A stretch of 64,000 nucleotides of DNA from Octopus vulgaris (Eukaryota): the NCBI GenBank assembly GCA_951406725.2, contig OX597838.1:30318001-30382000 (forward strand). The letters run 5' to 3'. Shown here piece after piece: positions 590-48,297 of the stretch (its first letter is position 1; each line of letters begins with the position of its first letter). The translations under genes were made by a program, and so were the position numbers. The notes below the pieces were generated by a model. The model worked only from the letters and a program-made list of their open reading frames with translations. It was not told where the DNA came from and did no database searches.

Positions 590-1060
590 CACACACACAC
601 ACACAGACACAGACACACACACACACATACACACACACACACACACAACACACACAGACACAGACACACACACACACATACACACAAATATACATACATA
701 AATACATACATACATACATGCATGCATGCATACATACATACATACATACATACATGCATACATACATACATACATACATACATACATACATACATACATA
801 CATACATACATACATACATACATAAATACATACATACATACATGCATACATACATACATACATACATACATACATACATACATACATACATGCATACATA
901 CATACATACATACATACATGCATACATACATACACACATACATACATACATACATACATACATACATACACACATACATACATACATACATACATACACA
1001 CATACATACATACATACATACATACACATACATACATACATACATACATACATGCATACA
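590..1060. repeat. (CA)n/(TACA)n microsatellite
   Basis: Direct reading; similar tracts at 3781-4640, 44243-44695, 51298-51960. Confidence 0.95.
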
Positions 1061-1431
1061 AACGAATAGACAGATAGACATAAATATATACGCATACATA
1101 TATCTATGCATACGCACACCCAACATATATATGTGGAGGCACATGGCCTAGTGGTTACAGCAGCGGACTCGCGGTCGAGGGATCGCGGGTTCGAATCTCA
1201 GACCGGGTGTGTGTGTTTATGAGCGAAACACCTAAGCTCCACGTGGCTCCGACAGAAGGTAATGGTGAAACTTCTGCTTTTTCTTTCGCCACAACTTTCT
1301 CTCACCCTTTCCTCCTGCATCTTGCAGCTCACCTGCGACGGACCGGCGTCCCGTCCAGGTGGGGAACCTATACGCCAAGAAACGGGGAAACCGGCCCTTA
1401 TGAGCCAGGCATGGCTCGAGAAGGAACAAAC

Positions 1432-1515
<84 letters not shown>

Positions 1516-1526
1516 ATATATGTATG

Positions 1527-1609
<83 letters not shown>

Positions 1610-1616
<7 letters not shown>

Positions 1617-1730
1617 ATTACGTGACCGACCAGGCTATCAGATGTTGCTACACATCGCTGGTCACAATGCGTTCGCATTGTTTTTTAGCCTTCGAATGAC
1701 GCCACCCCGCTGGCTAAGCGAGCAGGCCAA
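1610..1730 (-). mobile_element. LINE-like 3' end in (TA)n; related copy 10484-10608
   Basis: Shared tcacgtgat...gtgaccgaccag...acatcgctggtcac sequence, similar to the 52.5 kb RTE-like ends. Confidence 0.5.
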
Positions 1731-1732
1731 TA

Positions 1733-1833
<101 letters not shown>

Positions 1834-1837
1834 ATGG

Positions 1838-1868
<31 letters not shown>

Positions 1869-2119
1869 CGCTTGGCTTAGTGGTTAGGGTGTCAGCACCA
1901 TGATCGTAAGATTGTGGTTTCGATTACTGGACCGGGCGGCGCGTTGTGTTCTTGAGCAAAACACTTCATTTCACGTTGCTCCGGTCCACTCAGCTGGCAA
2001 AAATGAGCAACGCTGCGATGGACGGGCGGCCCGTCCAGCTGGGGAACACATACACCATAGAAACCGGGAAACCGGGCCCATGAGCCTGGCTAGGCTTTAA
2101 AAGGGCCGCAAAGAAGAAT

Positions 2120-2193
<74 letters not shown>

Positions 2194-2448
2194 TGTACAT
2201 TTCTATACAGAAAAGAGGTGAACTTAACAGGACACCTTAATTGCTAAAAAAAGCAGTTAAAGACCAAACCACAGATAAGAGAATTTCGAGGGGGATGAAA
2301 AATAAAAGCATTTCGATCGTAACCTACGCACTTAGGTTTCAACATCAATGGACAAATAAAATAATTTGCCATCTGTATCCTCATCAGCATAGGCGATATA
2401 ATTAATGTATATTTGTGGAACACTGAAAACACACATGTTCCATCTATA

Positions 2449-2842
2449 TCTTTATATATAAAAGTCAAGTTGTGTGTCTGTCTCCTACGATTTAGATTCC
2501 TAACTACTCCCACATTTTGCGGTGCAGTGTAACCAAAACCGGGTATCTTATAGTCGTGATTCATATCGAGCCCTTCTGGGTATTAGCGAACGTCTACAAT
2601 GAGTCTACGATTTTAAAAATAATTTACCATTATTTTTTCCATTTTAATGCATATTTTTTTAAATATAAGGAAAGTAACTCTCTAAAAATGTCTACGATGA
2701 GTCAACGATTTAAAAAAAAATTTACCATCATATTTTTTCCATTTTTAATGCATTTTTTGCTATATTTTGGCTATAACTCTCTAAAAATGCTTATATAGTT
2801 ATTTCCCTTACAAACCCGAGCAACGCCGGGCGATACTGCTAG
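2449..2842 (+). mobile_element. Non-autonomous Helitron family A
   Basis: 5' TC(tttatatataaaag), 3' hairpin cccgagcaacgccggg followed by CTAG|T; three copies in the window. Confidence 0.82.
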
Positions 2843-3012
2843 TACTTAATAGTTTTTCAAATCCACCGCGCAAGCGCAGTTAAAGTCGGCAACAAATAAA
2901 AAATTAACGTACCAATGTTCTTCTTCCCTTCCTTCCTGAGCGTCCAATAATTCTATATTTGTTCCACGTCCTCGCGTTGTTGTGTTTTCTCTTTGTGTTT
3001 TCATGTTTGGAT

Positions 3013-3088
<76 letters not shown>

Positions 3089-3333
3089 AGATAAGAAAAT
3101 GGAGAAATAAATCTAAATCAAATATCAATTACCAGATAATACTCAATCACATACTTTATTAAACCACCACATAAGAGACTGTAGGGTTAAATATAAAAGC
3201 AGAACAAATCAGTGTACATAAAGGAATGTACATAAAAAAGTGTACATAAAAGAATAATGTTGTATAATAAGTGGCAGTATATTGGATATATGTTATCCCA
3301 TGGAGGGTTGCTTTTACAACCCCTATCTCAATT

Positions 3334-8295: not shown

Positions 8296-8865
8296 CTTGT
8301 GGAGGCGTGCCAGCTGAAATTGTGTTCATAATTGATAGCTCTCGCAGTATATATCCCCCCCATTTCACGGAACAGATAAAATTTGTTGGAAACTTTGTGA
8401 AAATCTTTACAATAGGACCTAACGCTGTGCAAGTCGGTGTCGTAACCTATGGTGACATAATTATTCCACAAAACACGTTCCTCTGGAATAAGTACCAAGA
8501 CGAAGTGAGTCTAGTAAATGCCATCTCTAATATTGGATTCGATTTTGATAATGGTGGGACCACACAAACTGCGTTGGGCATCAGATATGCACGCGAAGAA
8601 ATGTTCATTAAAAGCAAACGAAGAGGTATTCAGAAAATTGCTATTCTGATCACAGATGGCGTATCGACGCATCCTTCTGAAGCCGTGCAAGAAGCAGAAG
8701 CATTACGAAAACTGGGCGTAATGTTAATCGGTGTTGGTGTTGGCAAAAGTGCTTCAAGATCAGAATTAGTACTCCTCACGGGTGACCCATCTCGTGTCTT
8801 CATGGTTTCGGGTTACGATCTGTTGGATACAGTTAAACAAAAGTTAGAGTTGAAAGCCTGCCTGC
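8296..8865 (+). CDS. vWA domain 1 exon of a matrilin/collagen VI-like vWA protein
   Basis: ttttgctttcag acceptor, C|GTATGT donor, 570 nt, phase 1-1. Translation ACGGVPAEIVFIIDSSRSI...VQVGVVTYG...GGTTQTALG...IAILITDG...IGVGVG...KAC has an intact MIDAS (DxSxS, T, D) and flanking cysteines. Confidence 0.95.
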
Positions 8866-9539
8866 GTATGTATACTCTTTTATTCTTTTTTTTTTATTTA
8901 TGGTTTTTGTATTTCTGTTGTTCTTTTATTCGTTTTACTTGTTTCAGTCATCACACTGTGGCCATGCTGGAGCACCGGTTTTTTTTAGTCGAACAAATTG
9001 ACCCCCACACCCAAAACCACCCCCACACCCACCCACCAGGACTTACTCTTTGTAAGCCTACTGCTTTCTTTTTCTAACGCGGTACTTATTCTTTTGCTGA
9101 ACCGCTAAGTTACTATTTACAATGATATCCATTACTCTTTTACTTGTTTCAGTCATTTGACTGCGGCCATGCTGGAGCACCACCTTTAGTCGAGCAAATC
9201 GACCCCGGGACTTATTCTTTGTAAGCCCAGTACTTATTCTATCGGTCTCTTTTTGCCGAACCGCTAAGTGACGGGGACGTAAACACACCAGCATCGGTTG
9301 TCAAGCAATGCTAGGGGGACAAACACAGACACACAAAACACACACATATATATACATATATATATACATATATACGACAGGCTTCTTTCAGTTTCCGTCT
9401 ACCAAATTCACTCACAAGGCATTGGTCGGCCCGGGGCTATAGCAGAAGACACTTGCCCAAGATGCCACGCAGTGGGATTTTACCCGGAACCATGTGGTTG
9501 GTTAGCAAGCTACTTACCACACAGCCACTCCTGCGCCTA

Positions 9540-14748: not shown

Positions 14749-15648
<900 letters not shown>

Positions 15649-17647: not shown

Positions 17648-17653
<6 letters not shown>

Positions 17654-17843
17654 TATATAGAAGGAGCTTCTACAGGACTAGAACTGTTTCATTCAAAAGA
17701 AATCATCAGGAAGCTTCCTGATGATTTCTTTTGAATGAAACAGTTCTAGTCCTGTAGAAGCTCCTTCTATATAATAAATTAATTTACTCTGCTATGTATT
17801 GAGTACCTTATTTACTGTGGTTAACCCGACTCAACCCGGGACC

Positions 17844-18434: not shown

Positions 18435-18641
<207 letters not shown>

Positions 18642-18707
18642 TGAAAGAAGTAAAAAATAAAATATTTGATATATATATAAATTTTTTGCGTTGTTTTTTT
18701 TTTACAG

Positions 18708-19079
18708 GTTTCGCCTTAAATCGGTATCAAACCAAAGAGGATATATTGAGACATTTCGACCAATTTCACCAAACGTCCCTCGCACCTCTTCTAACGGACA
18801 CCAAAGACAAATCTTTCAGCTTTCAAAGCGGCGGCCGTCCTGGAGCGCGTAAGGTCGCGGTTATTTTCCTAAAAGGAAAACTGAACGATCCAAGCGGAGT
18901 GGCTGCAAGAGCGAGTGCCCTTCGCAATAGTGGCGTTGAGGTGTTTGTCGTTAACATGGATAACATGAATTCGAGACAGACTTTGGAAACCATTGCATCA
19001 CCCGGCAATATTCTGGACGGCGATCGGGGAACGAGCATGGTGCTGTTGAGCAGGCAATTCTCAGACCGGCTTTGTAGAC
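18708..19079 (+). CDS. vWA domain 2, C-terminal exon (GFALNRYQTKEDIL...GGRPGARKVAVIFLKG...GVEVFVV...RLCR)
   Basis: tttttttacag acceptor, C|GTAAGT donor, 372 nt, phase 1-1; typical vWA motifs F-x-L-N-x-Y, RPGARKVAVI, GVEVFVV and terminal Cys. Confidence 0.9.
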
Positions 19080-19166
19080 GTAAGTAAAGCAGTTCAACGC
19101 ACACACACACACTAATGCAGTTGCATGTACCCATGCACACACATACGCACACTTGTACTCATATAG

Positions 19167-39349: not shown

Positions 39350-40631
39350 TCAGGTCATTCCATAAGTTCTGTACGAATTTTGAATAAAGAAAACAAGTGA
39401 TCAAAGTTATATTTAATAGAAATTTAATCATCAATGTACTTTCCCTGATTATCTATGACTTCCTTCCATCTATTTACAAGCTTTTTAATCCCATCAATGT
39501 AAAACTCTTTGGGTTTCAAAGCGAAGAACTCTGAAATGTCAGTTTTCGACCTCCTAGATGCGAAAGTTATGTCTACCAAATGATTCTGTAAACTACGAAA
39601 CAAATGGTAGTCTGAAGGAGCAAGGTCGGGAGAATAAGGTGGATGAGGAATTTTTTCCCAACCAAGCCCTTCGATCTTCTGTGATGTGATCTTTGAAATA
39701 TGGGGTCGCGCATTTTCCTGATGAAACATCACTCCTTTTCAATTCACTATAGCGGGTCTTTTTTTCTTCAAAGCTTGGTTCAAACGCTTTAATTGCTGAC
39801 AGTAGACTTGAGCATTGATTGTTGCATTAGGTGGTAACAATTCAAAGTGAGTTACTCCATTGCAATCCCACCAGATAGAGAGAAGTGCCTTTTACCCATG
39901 AAGTTCCTTTCTCGGTTGTGATTGAGTTTTTTTCCTTTTTACCAAGCCACTGTTTACGACGTTTAACATTTCGATAGAAGATCCATTTTTCGTCACCAGT
40001 CACAAGTCTATCCAAAAAAGGGTGAAATGAGTTCGTGAGAATGGAGAGAAGAGCAGATGTTGACTCGGGATTTGCGGCTGCTTTCGGACAATTCATGAGG
40101 CACCCATTTTCCAAATTTAGGAACCTTTCCGAGTTGTTGAAGATGACGATGAACAGTTGTATGGTTTGAACTAAGCTTTATTGCCAATTCTTCAATTGAT
40201 AATGCAGGATTTTCTTCAAGTAATTCCTCAAAGAGCTTATCATCAAACTCAAATGGACATCCTGTTCGATCTTCATCTCCAAGGCTGAAATCTCCACTTC
40301 TTAATTTTGCGAACCATATTCTGCAAGTTCTCTCATTCAAGCATTCTTTCCAATAAACCGAGTGTATGTTTCGAGTCGCTTTGGCTGCAGAGTTTCCTTT
40401 TTTGTACTCATAAAGCATTATGTACCTCAAATGCTCTTTGGATACTTCCATGTTAGAAAGGGTTTTAACCAAAGAAATTTTAATTCTATTATTCTGTAAA
40501 ATAATATTTAATTAGCTTAAATGTACACAAATGCATAAAAATAATTTTAAATTCCATTGGGCATTCTGAAATACTATTAAATTTCATTCAGTTTTAAAAA
40601 TGGTAAAATCGGACAGAACTTATGGGATGAC

Positions 40632-40635
<4 letters not shown>
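39350..40635 (-). mobile_element. Mariner transposon, full length, frameshifted transposase
   Basis: TIRs tcaggtcattccataagttctgt / acagaacttatgggatgacctga in TA context; motifs WVPHEL, LVTGDEKW, HQENARPH, YSPDLAPSDYHLF spread over several frames. Confidence 0.95.
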
Positions 40636-40702
<67 letters not shown>

Positions 40703-40751
40703 AAACAAGTCAAAAATAGAAAATGCTAAAATAATTTTATAGTGAACATTT

Positions 40752-40789
40752 CAGTACCGGTTTCGGTCATTTTGAGACCTTTTCAACTG
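40752..40789 (-). ncRNA. Minimal type I hammerhead motif, U3-A8 core variant
   Basis: Minus strand: CAG-TTGAAAA-GGTC-TCAAAAT-GACC-GAAAC-CG-GTA-CTG; palindromic stem III ACCGGT. Confidence 0.75.
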
Positions 40790-41314
40790 TAACGATTAAA
40801 TAATTAAATTTAGAAAAATTAGAAGAAAAGTTTTTTTAAAGGAATATTTCTATAGTAGTGTTCAGATTTAAGTGGCATTCTGCCTTTCTCTGACTCCCTT
40901 GTTTGCACTTGTGTGTTGGAGGTCGTTGTGAGTTCTTGGTAGGGTAGTAGAGGAAGAAGGCTGGTGAGGAAAGGGGGTGGGAGAATCTGGGAGTGCCCTG
41001 ATGGTCGTATTTTGAATGGTCAGTGGCCTGTATTTTGCAATAAAGAGAGTTTCTTTACTTATTCGTTGTCTCGAGGTTGTATCGTCCCTAAATTGGTAGA
41101 GGGGGAAAATCCTGAAGCTTGGTGTTTTTTTGTTGGCGCAAGTATCTATGTGTTGGCTAAAAGCTATTTTTCTGTTTTGGGGAATTTTTATCTGGGATCT
41201 GTGCAGGGCCATTCGTTTAGGCAGAATGCCACTTAAATCTGAACACTACTATAGAAATATTCCTTTAAAAAAACTTTTCTTCTAATTTTTCTAAATTTAA
41301 TTATTTAATCGTTA

Positions 41315-41352
41315 CAGTTGAAAAGGTCTCAAAATGGCCGAAACCGGTACTG
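41315..41352 (+). ncRNA. Minimal type I hammerhead motif, U3-A8 variant (inverted copy)
   Basis: CAG-TTGAAAA-GGTC-TCAAAAT-GGCC-GAAAC-CG-GTA-CTG. Confidence 0.72.
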
Positions 41353-41435
41353 AAATGTTCACTATAAAATTATTTTAGCATTTTCTATTTTTGACTTGTT
41401 TTTTCATATATATCAACTCGTGTGTTCCTTTTCAC

Positions 41436-41470
<35 letters not shown>

Positions 41471-42014
41471 ACAGATAAAGTGTGAAATATAATTAATTTA
41501 ATAAAATCAATAAATTTCACCTAATAGTATTTTTCGGTATGGTAAAGGACCATATTCGGTAAAAATTTATATAATTATAACAGGGGTTTTTTGCAACAAG
41601 TTGTTTAAACCACATACCGAAAATATATTTCTAATATTTTCAGTATGCAACTTGTTGCAAAAAAACCCTATTATAATTGTGCCTTAATACATTCACCGGT
41701 AAAATTTCCATTTTTTTTTTCTTATTTTTATTGTCCTAACATTTTCGTTGCGTCTTGCAACCTTTTCAATAGTTTTGACTCATTGTTGGATGCTTGGAAA
41801 TTGTGTGCCAAAGAAGGAGAGTCAAGACTATTGAAAAGTTTGAAAGACGCGACGAAAATTTTAGGACAATAAAAATAAGAAAAAAGTGGAAATTTTACCG
41901 GTAAGTGTGTTAAATAATAAGGCACAAAAAGAAAATTACTCTCCCCAGACACATCAGAATATGCTTCAACACACGAACTCGTATAAAGAATCTTGCAAAC
42001 CAAATCCCAAAACG

Positions 42015-42562: not shown

Positions 42563-42820
42563 CTATGTGGACGCCCTTACGCTAAAAAGAGATCCGCGTG
42601 AGTCTCAACCACTAAGAAGAGACTCACGCGGATCTCTTTTAGCGTAAGGGCGTCCACGTAGTGGATTCTCTCTCATATTTATGTATTAATAATATTTACT
42701 GAATCTCAGTTTTTTATGCGCTAAACCACTGGTGTTAAATTGGTGTTATTAAACTAATATCCAATTTTTCACCCTCATTTTGACTATATATATATATATA
42801 TTATTCATATATATATATAC

Positions 42821-42869
<49 letters not shown>

Positions 42870-43128
42870 GTATATATATGAATATATATATATATATATA
42901 TATATAGTCAAAATGAGGGTGAAAAATTGGATATTAGTTTAATAACACCAATTTAACACCAGTGGTTTAGCGCATAAAAAACTGAGATTCAGTAAATATT
43001 ATCAATACATAAATATGAGAGAGAATCCACTATGTGGACGCCCTTACGCTAAAAAGAGATCCGCGTGAGTCTCTTCTTAGTGGTTGAGACTCACGCGGAT
43101 CTCTTTTTAGCGTAAGGGCGTCCACATA
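42563..43128. repeat. Nested palindrome: two fold-back units inverted around a TA spacer
   Basis: 42563-42788 is the reverse complement of 42903-43128; each unit ends in a ~43-bp hairpin with loop aaccactaagaa / ttcttagtggtt. Confidence 0.85.
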
Positions 43129-43409
43129 ATGTATGTATATATATAATAATAAGAGTAAATAATTTCTATAATGGTTCTTAAAAAAAGACCACAATTATTT
43201 ACTGGTAGAATTCGGTATGTAAATATAGCCGGTTAACGGTAGGAACTTGTGTAAAGTTCTGTATATATATTGTAAATAAGAAAAAAGGGACAGGCAACAG
43301 GTTGCTTGACCGCATACTTGTGGAAAATAGAAATAAGCATTCTTGACTGCTATTTCTACTTTTTCGGTATGCGGTCAAGCAACCTGTTGCCTGTCCCTTT
43401 TTTCTATAT

Positions 43410-43464
<55 letters not shown>

Positions 43465-43469
<5 letters not shown>

Positions 43470-43666
43470 TCCCGGGTTGATACGGGGTTAACCACAGTAA
43501 GTAAGGTACTCAATACATAGCAGAGTAAAATTAATTTATTATATATGAAGGAGCTTCTACAGGACTAGTACTGTTTCATTCAAGAGAAATCTTCAGGAAG
43601 CTTCCTGAAGATTTCTCTTGAATGAAACAGTACTAGTCCTGTAGAAGCTCCTTCTATATAATAAAT

Positions 43667-43670
<4 letters not shown>
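43465..43670. mobile_element. Fold-back hammerhead element, second copy of the 17648 family in opposite orientation
   Basis: Palindrome centred at 43600|43601 (AAG|CTT); same tail sequence; (TA)n flanks. Confidence 0.75.
43599..43649 (+). ncRNA. Type I hammerhead ribozyme motif, same family as 17712 (mirror copy on minus strand)
   Basis: AGCTTC-CTGAAGA-TTTCTCTTGAAT-GAAACAG-TACTAGTC-CTGTA-GAAGCT; differences from the 17.7 kb copy fall at N7 and in loops. Confidence 0.72.
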
Positions 43671-47720: not shown

Positions 47721-47761
<41 letters not shown>

Positions 47762-47812
47762 GTATAGGAAAGAATGGAGCTGAACGAAGATTTAACAAAA
47801 TTCCTTTAATTT

Positions 47813-47895
47813 ATTTTCGACATATGTTTCGAAGTCTGCAAAGTCCCAAATTCCGATTGAATGAGTCCATTTTGCAGCTTTCTCTTCAGGAAAAT
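47813..47895 (-). ncRNA. Type I hammerhead ribozyme motif (inverted copy of 47998-48083)
   Basis: Reverse complement of the same motif with a small deletion in loop II. Confidence 0.85.
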
Positions 47896-47997
47896 CCAGG
47901 AACTTAATTCTCCAACAAAATGCACAACAAGCTTTTCGACAAACGCTCACGAGGAGCCCACGAAATTGTGCATTTTGTTGGAGAATTAAGTTCCTGG

Positions 47998-48083
47998 ATT
48001 TTCCTGAAGAGAAAGCTGCAAAATGGACTCCTTATTCAATCGGAATTTGGGACTTTGCAGACTTCGAAACATATGTCGAAAAT
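47998..48083 (+). ncRNA. Type I hammerhead ribozyme motif with long stem II
   Basis: ATTTTC-CTGAAGA-GAAAGCTGCAAA...TTTGCAGACTTC-GAAAC-ATAT-GTC-GAAAAT; GUC triplet, palindromic stem III ACATATGT. Confidence 0.88.
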
Positions 48084-48297
48084 AAAATAAAATAAAATAA
48101 AGGAATTTTGTTAAATCTTCGTTCAGCTCCATTCTTTCCTATACTTAATATGTAAAACTTCAAATTTCCGCACTAAGGCTCGGATTTTATGCCCCATGGT
48201 CGTAACTTCAACCGTGCCCTTTCTGTTGTGAATTTTGCTACCCAGGTATCGGTTATCTTTCGAATTATCCGTAATAAGATAATTCATTTATCTACTT

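What the first reader, a model, noticed from the sequence alone, without database searches (positions are those of the whole stretch)
40691..41437. Fold-back element retaining a GIY-YIG-like C-terminus and a U3-A8 hammerhead variant
Seen: 187-bp inverted arms, a spacer peptide KRMALHRSQI...H...C...F.IFP.YQ...R..KE..FI.KY.P, and the core UUGAAAA in place of CUGANGA, with palindromic stem III ACCGGU. Established: C3-G8 must pair for catalysis and U3-A8 is a compensatory variant; palindromic stem III allows dimeric hammerheads. Inference: this copy ties the non-coding fold-backs to autonomous Penelope-like elements.
Basis: partly seen in the sequence, partly recalled or inferred. Interest (0 to 1): 0.72.

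Follow-up and report, generated by a model that had tools for sequence, protein, structure and literature searches.

The report
Truncated Penelope retroelement with hammerhead ribozyme
This is a short, dead tail-end copy of a Penelope-type jumping gene, with the mirror-image ends and the self-cutting RNA variant already described for such elements; its only extra is that it seems spliced together from two related element ends.

Summary
The arms are 187 nt with one mismatch. Each carries a type-I hammerhead fold with a U3-A8 core and an ACCGGU palindrome. The spacer encodes the C-terminal half of a Penelope-like (PLE) GIY-YIG endonuclease: 87 homologues, best 58% identical, E 4e-16, and the long ones are RT+EN proteins with a Neptune/Nematis-type linker. 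Other copies of this high-copy family continue in frame into YIG. A distant full-length relative (L002) has a U3-A8 core with a palindromic stem III behind its ORF.

This is the published anatomy of a 5'-truncated PLE insertion: inverted pseudo-LTR, optional tail, (TA)n target. U3-A8 PLE hammerheads and opposite-strand pairs were reported in 2014.

Corrections: the peptide lacks GIY, YIG and the terminal Asn. The two hammerheads lie on opposite strands, so they cannot pair into a dimer in cis, and the hairpin buries them. The window's other fold-backs share no sequence with this one.

One addition: an internal join at 41022-41027 appears to fuse two different endonuclease ends at about 6 nt of microhomology. 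This scan reached a similar verdict on another genome (e1-7788964). Interest is low.

The parts
40636..40698 (.). (TA)n target, left; abuts the right end of a mariner-like remnant
   Evidence: inverted terminal repeat match
40699..40885 (-). 3' end of the element (last codons, stop, 3' UTR = pseudo-LTR); left arm
   Evidence: the ORF runs into it and stops at 40870-40868
40747..40794 (-). type-I minimal hammerhead, U3 at 40786, A8 at 40781, palindrome ACCGGU, predicted cut 3' of 40755; same strand as the ORF
40886..41027 (-). segment B: in other copies preceded by a different sequence that reads P-E-L-N in frame; frame not conserved among copies
   Evidence: table 7 (X8 behind 41027, 2 contigs; X7 behind 41026, 3 contigs), read by eye; indels at 40953/40954 and 40972 (table 4) and a stop variant at 40868 (table 3); no homologue matches beyond query residue 77
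41022..41027 (-). internal junction, about 5-6 nt shared by segments A and B
   Evidence: A-type contigs match down to 41022 (loose ends in 4 of 4 runs); B-type contigs match up to 41026/41027 (loose ends in 2 of 4 runs, plus one X1 joint)
41022..41223 (-). segment A: C-terminal half of a PLE GIY-YIG endonuclease (keeps R, H, H, E; lacks GIY, YIG and the P-x-L-N Asn)
   Evidence: other copies continue upstream in frame as Y-I-G-Q-T and downstream as L-L-N (table 7, by eye)
41219..41223 (.). 5'-truncation/inversion junction; 5 nt fit both the parent ORF and the inverted arm
   Evidence: the arm starts at 41219; ORF-type contigs match to 41223 before their loose end (X7 and X8)
41219..41413 (+). 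inverted copy of the 3' end (inverted pseudo-LTR); right arm
41310..41357 (+). second hammerhead copy, U3 at 41318, predicted cut 3' of 41349; carries the rare variant 41337 G (U-G pair in stem II)
   Evidence: tables 2 and 3
41414..41437 (+). 24-nt optional 'tail', at one end only
   Evidence: table 7: 34 (X1) and 24 (X3) contigs go to TA directly after 41413, 40 (X3) go on a few nt beyond 41434 before TA
41438..41466 (.). (TA)n target, right

Best explanation
A dead-on-arrival, 5'-truncated insertion of an endonuclease-positive, linker-bearing (Neptune-like) Penelope-like retroelement into a (TA)n run. SHOWN: EN-fragment identity, high copy number, heterogeneous truncation, optional tail, microhomologies, hammerhead fold. 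INFERRED, from the Anolis Poseidon model: the element's GIY-YIG nuclease nicked the AT-rich target; its RT primed at one of two sites near the RNA 3' end, which gives ends with or without the tail, and copied the 3' UTR with the hammerhead; synthesis stopped about five codons short of YIG; an oppositely oriented copy of the 3' end was joined at a 5-nt microhomology, giving head-to-head arms. An internal stretch between two EN-bearing units was skipped at a ~6-nt microhomology, by an RT jump or a later deletion. The U3-A8/ACCGGU hammerhead is a family trait that could cut only as a dimer of same-strand copies in tandem transcripts of the parent. In this copy any read-through RNA forms a ~190-bp duplex that hides the core, so the likely output is double-stranded RNA, not cleavage or protein.
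For: 87 homologues at E<=1e-3, best 58% identical, E 4e-16. 13 of 17 scanned hits (17 longer ones picked from 87) reach Pfam GIY-YIG gathering over the matching region; P0010 also has RVT_1. Of 30 homologues of 400 aa or more, 29 align to the fragment; of those 24 have the RT catalytic motif, 28 the CX2-5CxxC linker, 29 CxxC..YIG, 29 P-x-L-N, and in 29 the EN is C-terminal. 5327, 2980, 1228 and 45 contigs were laid in four runs; loose ends give in-frame YIG and optional tails. L002 has a 754-aa open RT+EN frame, then a U3-A8 core with palindrome AUCGAU about 70 nt after the stop, then (TA)n. Dimer -24.5 kcal/mol against 2 x -8.5; core bases at least 99.7% paired in the whole-element fold. The anatomy is as published.
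Against: No full-length parent close to this fragment was found; the best RT-bearing homologue is 49% identical over the fragment. No Pfam hit on the fragment, and no GIY-YIG Pfam hit on the L002 ORF, whose RVT_1 score is below gathering. Rfam scores are far below gathering here and nil on L002. Only 1 of 3 fetched loci showed such a core. No target-site duplication can be seen inside (TA)n. No listed contig piece bridges either junction (32 of 9610 pieces shown). The minimum-energy folds pair U3 with A17 (2.3 kcal/mol more stable than the open core), which could slow cleavage.
Confidence: 0.92

Rival explanations
1. A non-autonomous fold-back or MITE-like DNA transposon with terminal inverted repeats that captured a piece of a PLE gene.
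For: Near-perfect 187-nt terminal inverted repeats with TA at both ends; a mariner-like remnant is adjacent.
Against: The arm is itself the end of the ORF plus its 3' UTR (the stop lies inside the left arm). One end has an extra tail. Other copies invert at many different points (15 of 19 joints shown, table 5). The arm resembles no neighbouring TIR.
Confidence: 0.03
2. The composite is an amplified non-autonomous PLE derivative (segment A joined to B with its 3' UTR) that is mobilised in trans as a unit, not a one-off.
For: Summed depth is of the same order over segments A and B in three runs. A second form joining A-type sequence to an inverted 3' end like this one occurs in X1 and X3 (joint 41223 to 41399). 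This also fits A and B being parts of one long parent.
Against: In X8 a single 349-nt contig covers 41022-41223 with 2 differences and leaves at both ends into non-composite sequence. No listed piece bridges 41022-41027 (table cut).
Confidence: 0.2
3. A domesticated or functional unit: an expressed short nuclease peptide, or a working ribozyme switch.
For: The frame is open for 116 codons; the hammerhead core shows no variant among the 40 best-supported rows table 3 (28 rows not shown).
Against: GIY, YIG and the terminal Asn are missing. The frame of segment B is broken in many copies. Arm identity of 194/195 means a young insertion, so an intact frame needs no selection. The core is buried in the duplex.
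Confidence: 0.03
4. The locus is an assembly join of repeat pieces.
For: Very repetitive family; no listed contig piece spans the junctions.
Against: The junction overlaps are only 5-6 nt, too short for an overlap misjoin. The arms differ by a rare base. Fold-back joints of the same type appear in independent runs (table 5).
Confidence: 0.03

Closest known systems
Canonical C-terminal EN+ Penelope-like elements with linker Zn-finger (Neptune; Nematis) - Craig et al. 2021, PMC8557442
   Same: GIY-YIG EN C-terminal to RT in homologues, CCHH and CX2-5CxxC motifs, 5' truncation, adjacent inverted copy, optional tail at one end, (TA)n target, 3' hammerhead.
   Different: Only the last ~67 EN codons are left. 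The tail is 24 nt here (30-40 typical). There is an internal A/B join. Clade not fixed by a tree: the long linker spacing and RT motifs of homologues look Neptune-like by eye against Figs S1/S2, while the short P-x-L-N ending resembles Nematis/Poseidon.
U3-A8 minimal hammerheads of Cercyon PLEs in Schistosoma mansoni - Cervera & De la Pena 2014, PMC4209133
   Same: U3-A8 core covariation, palindromic stem III, G10.1-C11.1, dimer-type design, pairs on opposite strands 100-700 bp apart attributed to truncated PLEs.
   Different: Stem II is 4 bp with no extra base between positions 9 and 10.1 (most min-HHRs there have one, and 7-8 bp). The palindrome is 6 nt. Different host and PLE lineage.
Adineta vaga Pen2 derivatives - Arkhipova et al. 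2013, PMC3846280
   Same: Copies flanked by inverted pLTRs, optional tail, 5' junction by microhomology, internal microhomology-mediated deletion.
   Different: Those are Penelope families with visible 9-10 bp TSDs. Here the target is (TA)n and the skipped stretch seems to lie between two EN C-termini.
Poseidon of Anolis (PAc) - Frangieh et al. 2024, PMC11167929
   Same: AT-rich target; two RT start sites explain the optional tail; hammerhead dispensable for insertion in vitro.
   Different: PAc has a C3-G8 core; the mechanism is transferred here by analogy, not tested.
Non-LTR retrozymes (bioRxiv 10.64898/2026.07.22.740005)
   Same: Type-I hammerhead, PLE pLTR ancestry, non-autonomous.
   Different: Retrozymes are same-strand tandem repeats; this copy has one hammerhead per strand and keeps an EN fragment.

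Membership tests
EN+ Penelope-like element (derived copy) | GIY-YIG endonuclease of PLE type | tested here: met
   87 homologues; 13 of 17 at Pfam GIY-YIG gathering; in-frame YIG in other copies (by eye). The fragment alone has no Pfam hit.
EN+ Penelope-like element (derived copy) | RT in the same ORF as the EN | tested here: inconclusive
   Absent from this copy and the window. Present in homologues: 24 of 29, 13 of 28 with both Pfam families on record, and L002. The actual parent was not recovered.
EN+ Penelope-like element (derived copy) | CCHH Zn-finger in the EN | tested here: met
   Both His retained in the fragment; the CxxC before YIG is lost here but present in 29 of 29 long homologues.
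EN+ Penelope-like element (derived copy) | pLTR, adjacent inverted 5'-truncated copy, optional tail | tested here: met
   definition read
EN+ Penelope-like element (derived copy) | Hammerhead motif in the pLTR | tested here: met
   descriptor and fold; Rfam in register but below gathering
EN+ Penelope-like element (derived copy) | Target-site duplication | tested here: inconclusive
   hidden by (TA)n on both sides, as Craig 2021 notes for microsatellite targets
Neptune clade | CX2-5CxxC linker between RT and a C-terminal EN | tested here: met
   28 of 29 long homologues; shared with Nematis; not present in the truncated copy itself
Neptune clade | Placement in the RT phylogeny with reference Neptunes | not tested
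   no reference clade proteins among the session's sequences; comparison by eye only
Naiad / Chlamys | EN N-terminal to RT | tested here: not met
   EN within 20 aa of the C-terminus in 29 of 29
Hydra clade | CCHH absent, CxCX5C linker | tested here: not met
   segment A homologues keep CCHH and CX2-5CxxC (definition); the clade of segment B's upstream EN is unknown
Active hammerhead ribozyme | Self-cleavage as monomer or dimer | not testable with these tools
   predicted folds only
Non-LTR retrozyme | Same-strand tandem repeats each with a type-I hammerhead | tested here: not met
   one hammerhead per strand, no tandem unit

The most novel reading that the evidence does not exclude
The copy records two microhomology-guided RT jumps in a single insertion, one of them between RNAs of two different PLE families (EN end of A, 3' UTR and hammerhead of B). 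PLE ribonucleoproteins would then co-package and recombine heterologous RNAs, so hammerhead-bearing 3' ends are swapped between lineages as modules. U3-A8 with a 6-nt palindrome may mark a whole lineage, since it recurs in distant L002.
Probability: 0.3. Interest if true: 0.45.

Novelty: new member of a known kind. Interest (0 to 1): 0.22.

Why it matters
It matters little by itself: each element of the finding is published for PLEs. It does add a high-copy U3-A8 PLE family, seen under four organism codes, and a young copy whose junctions are readable. A genome with thousands of such junctions could test how inverted pLTRs form, which is open (self-priming on an antisense template versus microhomology jumps), and whether PLE families exchange 3' ends. 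Such hairpins are also candidate sources of double-stranded RNA against the family (inference).

Tried and rejected
No whole genome is held, so copies could not be counted or aligned. Pfam on the peptide: none. Word-indexed searches for longer relatives with the peptide and with alignment A1 (only 425-2000 aa searched): none, which is weak evidence. ESM Atlas: top hit unnamed at 0.94, GIY-YIG clusters only 0.88 and 0.86, leads only. PDB profile search: none. Single-sequence AlphaFold of P0001 gave pLDDT 32 and was discarded; no fold search was run. Cluster names for the first hits could not be looked up. Window-wide Rfam: no hammerhead among the 150 of 293 rows shown, which were dominated by microsatellite noise. 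Run search: no RNA holder listed; X8 is RNA only by guess and was not used as evidence of expression. The profile search of window frames (E 3e-31) is circular and not counted. The motif counts (YIG-like 43 of 69, P-x-L-N 53 of 82) are rough because ten N-truncated hits were mis-indexed, so one search is used instead. Lunse et al. 2017 was not held; I know it only from its citation and from recall. A Hydra identity for segment B was considered because of Cys residues after L-N; the supplement had no P-E-L-N match and describes a C-terminal CxH, so this is unresolved. Look-ups of this scan's notes by sequence and by place found nothing.

Full report
Setting. The window is AT-rich animal DNA dense in microsatellites and SINE-like repeats. 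It looks like an octopus genome to me, but that is recall and was not established. No whole genome is held.

Observation. The arms are real: 40699-40885 and 41219-41405, 187 nt, or 195 nt with the TA ends and a single mismatch, around a 333-nt spacer. The right arm carries 24 further nt (41414-41437) and both ends run into (TA)n. On the minus strand one frame runs from the junction through the spacer into the left arm and stops at 40870-40868. The left arm is therefore the element's own 3' end, and the right arm is an inverted copy of it placed at the truncated 5' end. Each arm holds a type-I hammerhead layout: CAG, UUGAAAA, 4-bp stem II, GAA, ACCGGU, A, CUG. A descriptor found 3 U3-A8 hits in the window against 0.02 per shuffle (100 shuffles). 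A stricter one hit both arms and 0 of 200 shuffles of the element. Rfam aligns Hammerhead_HH9 in register but weakly (16.2 bits, E 0.13, gathering 52), and the monomer is no more stable than shuffles.

The peptide. Pfam does not see the fragment, but phmmer against 1.84 billion representatives gave 87 hits, best 58% identical at E 4e-16, none reaching past query residue 77. Of 17 longer hits scanned, 13 reach the GIY-YIG gathering score over the matching region, and P0010 (745 aa) also has RVT_1. A search with P0010's EN region returned 28 proteins, 13 with both RT and GIY-YIG on record; the 7 that bear names are from Saccostrea and Mytilus. Among the 30 homologues of 400 aa or more, 29 align to the fragment. 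Of these 24 show the RT catalytic motif, 28 the CX2-5CxxC linker, 29 CxxC before YIG, 28 both His, 29 P-x-L-N, and in all 29 the EN is C-terminal. By the definitions in Craig et al. 2021 (sections 3, 6, 11 and supplementary Figs S1-S2 read) this is a linker-bearing canonical PLE, Neptune-like by eye, not Naiad or Hydra; no tree was made. The fragment keeps R, H, H and E but lacks GIY, YIG and the final Asn, so it cannot be a nuclease.

The family. 20 of 24 listed runs hold half or more of the sampled words, under four organism codes and ten studies. Laying four runs at 80% likeness placed 5327, 2980, 1228 and 45 contigs, so this is a high-copy family. Loose ends (24 of 542 shown), read by eye in frame, show three things. 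First, beyond 41223 other copies continue upstream into Y-I-G-Q-T (X7 3 contigs, X8 1 contig), so truncation fell about five codons after YIG, and the 5 nt at 41219-41223 fit both the ORF and the inverted arm. Second, the tail is optional: 34 and 24 contigs go to TA right after 41413, and 40 go on slightly past 41434. Third, there is an internal discontinuity. Contigs matching the EN fragment leave at 41022 in 4 of 4 runs and read L-L-N and a nearby stop, the normal ending also seen in P0015 and P0016. Contigs matching the 3' part leave at 41026/41027 (X7, X8), and the X8 sequence reads P-E-L-N in the same frame. The copy thus seems to join one EN end (A) to what follows another EN end (B) at 5-6 shared nt, skipping the conserved Asn. 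One X8 contig covers all of A with 2 differences and is not composite. None of the 32 pieces shown (of 9610) bridges either junction, so whether the composite is unique or amplified, and whether A and B belong to one tandem parent or two families, is open. No variant at U3 or A8 is among the 40 best-supported rows (28 hidden), so U3-A8 is probably the family state, while 41337 G is rare.

An autonomous relative. A metagenome scan with P0001 gave 3 loci. L002 has a 754-aa open frame (912-3173) with RVT_1 at E 1.2e-5, below gathering and with no GIY-YIG Pfam hit, 31% identical to the fragment (E 5e-8). It is followed by a U3-A8 core at 3245, a 6-bp stem II, the palindrome AUCGAU and then (TA)n; Rfam does not score it. 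L001 and L003 are partial or decayed and gave no descriptor hit. So 1 of 3 loci ties this hammerhead type to an intact RT+EN ORF of the same EN lineage.

How it works. Two copies of the 48-nt motif are predicted to fold with exchanged stem I and an intermolecular ACCGGU stem III (-24.5 against 2 x -8.5 kcal/mol; left arm -25.7 against 2 x -9.1), though with U3 paired to A17. That dimer needs two same-strand copies, as in a tandem parent transcript. Here the copies are on opposite strands, and in a fold of the whole element every core base is paired with probability 0.997 or more. The insertion steps (nick in AT-rich DNA, internal priming at two sites giving the tail) are taken from Frangieh et al. 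2024 (parts 1-2 of 4 read), where the hammerhead was also dispensable for insertion in vitro. They are inferred for this element, not shown.

Other fold-backs. blastn finds no second copy in the window, and the arm matches none of seven other fold-back regions better than E 0.01. Of nine regions, the strict descriptor hit this one and 47759-48147 (C3-G8 core, long stem II, palindrome ACAUAUGU). 17650-17777 and 43531-43669 have C3-G8 cores without a closing stem II, and looser scans hit 15111 and 41769/41831. These are probably 3' ends of other PLE families; this copy supports that by analogy only.

Comparison with the literature. Cervera & De la Pena 2014 (parts 1-2 of 4 read) report U3-A8 hammerheads in Cercyon PLEs (about 1,300 hits in S. 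mansoni), palindromic stem III, low dimer-only activity for a S. mansoni min-HHR, and pairs on opposite strands 100-700 bp apart. Perreault et al. 2011 (passages) report natural U3-A8. Craig et al. 2021 describe the inverted truncated copy, the tail and (TA)n targets. Arkhipova et al. 2013 (passages) describe inverted pLTRs, microhomology 5' joints and internal microhomology deletions. A 2019 review (PMC6765202, passages) restates the dimer model. An Octopus vulgaris repeat annotation (passages) lists 31 recently active Penelope-like families and does not mention hammerheads; its supplements were not read. The retrozyme preprint was read in part 1 of 5 (its supplements are closed). Five searches listed no paper on this particular family or on inter-family PLE chimeras, but the library lacks subscription papers, Lunse 2017 was not held, and Repbase/Dfam could not be checked.

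Verdict. A real, well-explained, truncated Penelope-like insertion; a new member of a known kind; interest 0.22. The composite junction is the only part worth a second look.

Noticed in passing
window 39350-40635: Decayed mariner-like transposon (broken transposase frames on the minus strand, naming from recalled motifs; terminal inverted repeats match). The PLE copy sits in the (TA)n that follows its right end.
   Followed up: partly
window 47759-48147: Fold-back with a C3-G8 hammerhead on each strand, long stem II, palindromic stem III ACAUAUGU and C17; unrelated in sequence to the finding.
   Followed up: partly
window 41684-41913: Older fold-back (80% arm identity) just downstream, with U3-A8-like cores at + 41831 and - 41769; a second, decayed hairpin at 41573-41678.
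   Followed up: partly
window 17650-17777 and 43531-43669: Two near-perfect spacer-less hairpins of one family next to (TA)n, with CUGAnGA...GAAAC cores but U-U at the base of stem II.
   Followed up: partly
window - 3539 and - 42431: Repeated hammerhead-like motif with altered core (CUGUCGA / CUGUUGA), 4-bp stem II and palindrome ACGU.
   Followed up: no
window 14846-15597: Complex direct and inverted repeat unit in (TA)n with a C3-G8 core at - 15111; looks like another PLE 3' end.
   Followed up: partly
window 42564-43134 and 43271-43412: Nested palindromic fold-backs in (TA)n without a hammerhead hit under any descriptor used.
   Followed up: no
L002 1-924: 308-codon Asn/Arg-rich open frame upstream of and overlapping the RT+EN frame; no Pfam hit.
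   Followed up: no
L001 2995-3134: A 142-nt imperfect palindrome (72%) shortly after a decayed EN of the same lineage.
   Followed up: no
window about 8300-8870 and 18641-19087: Exon-like frames resembling von Willebrand factor A domains (recalled motif), suggesting the element may lie within or near a host gene.
   Followed up: no
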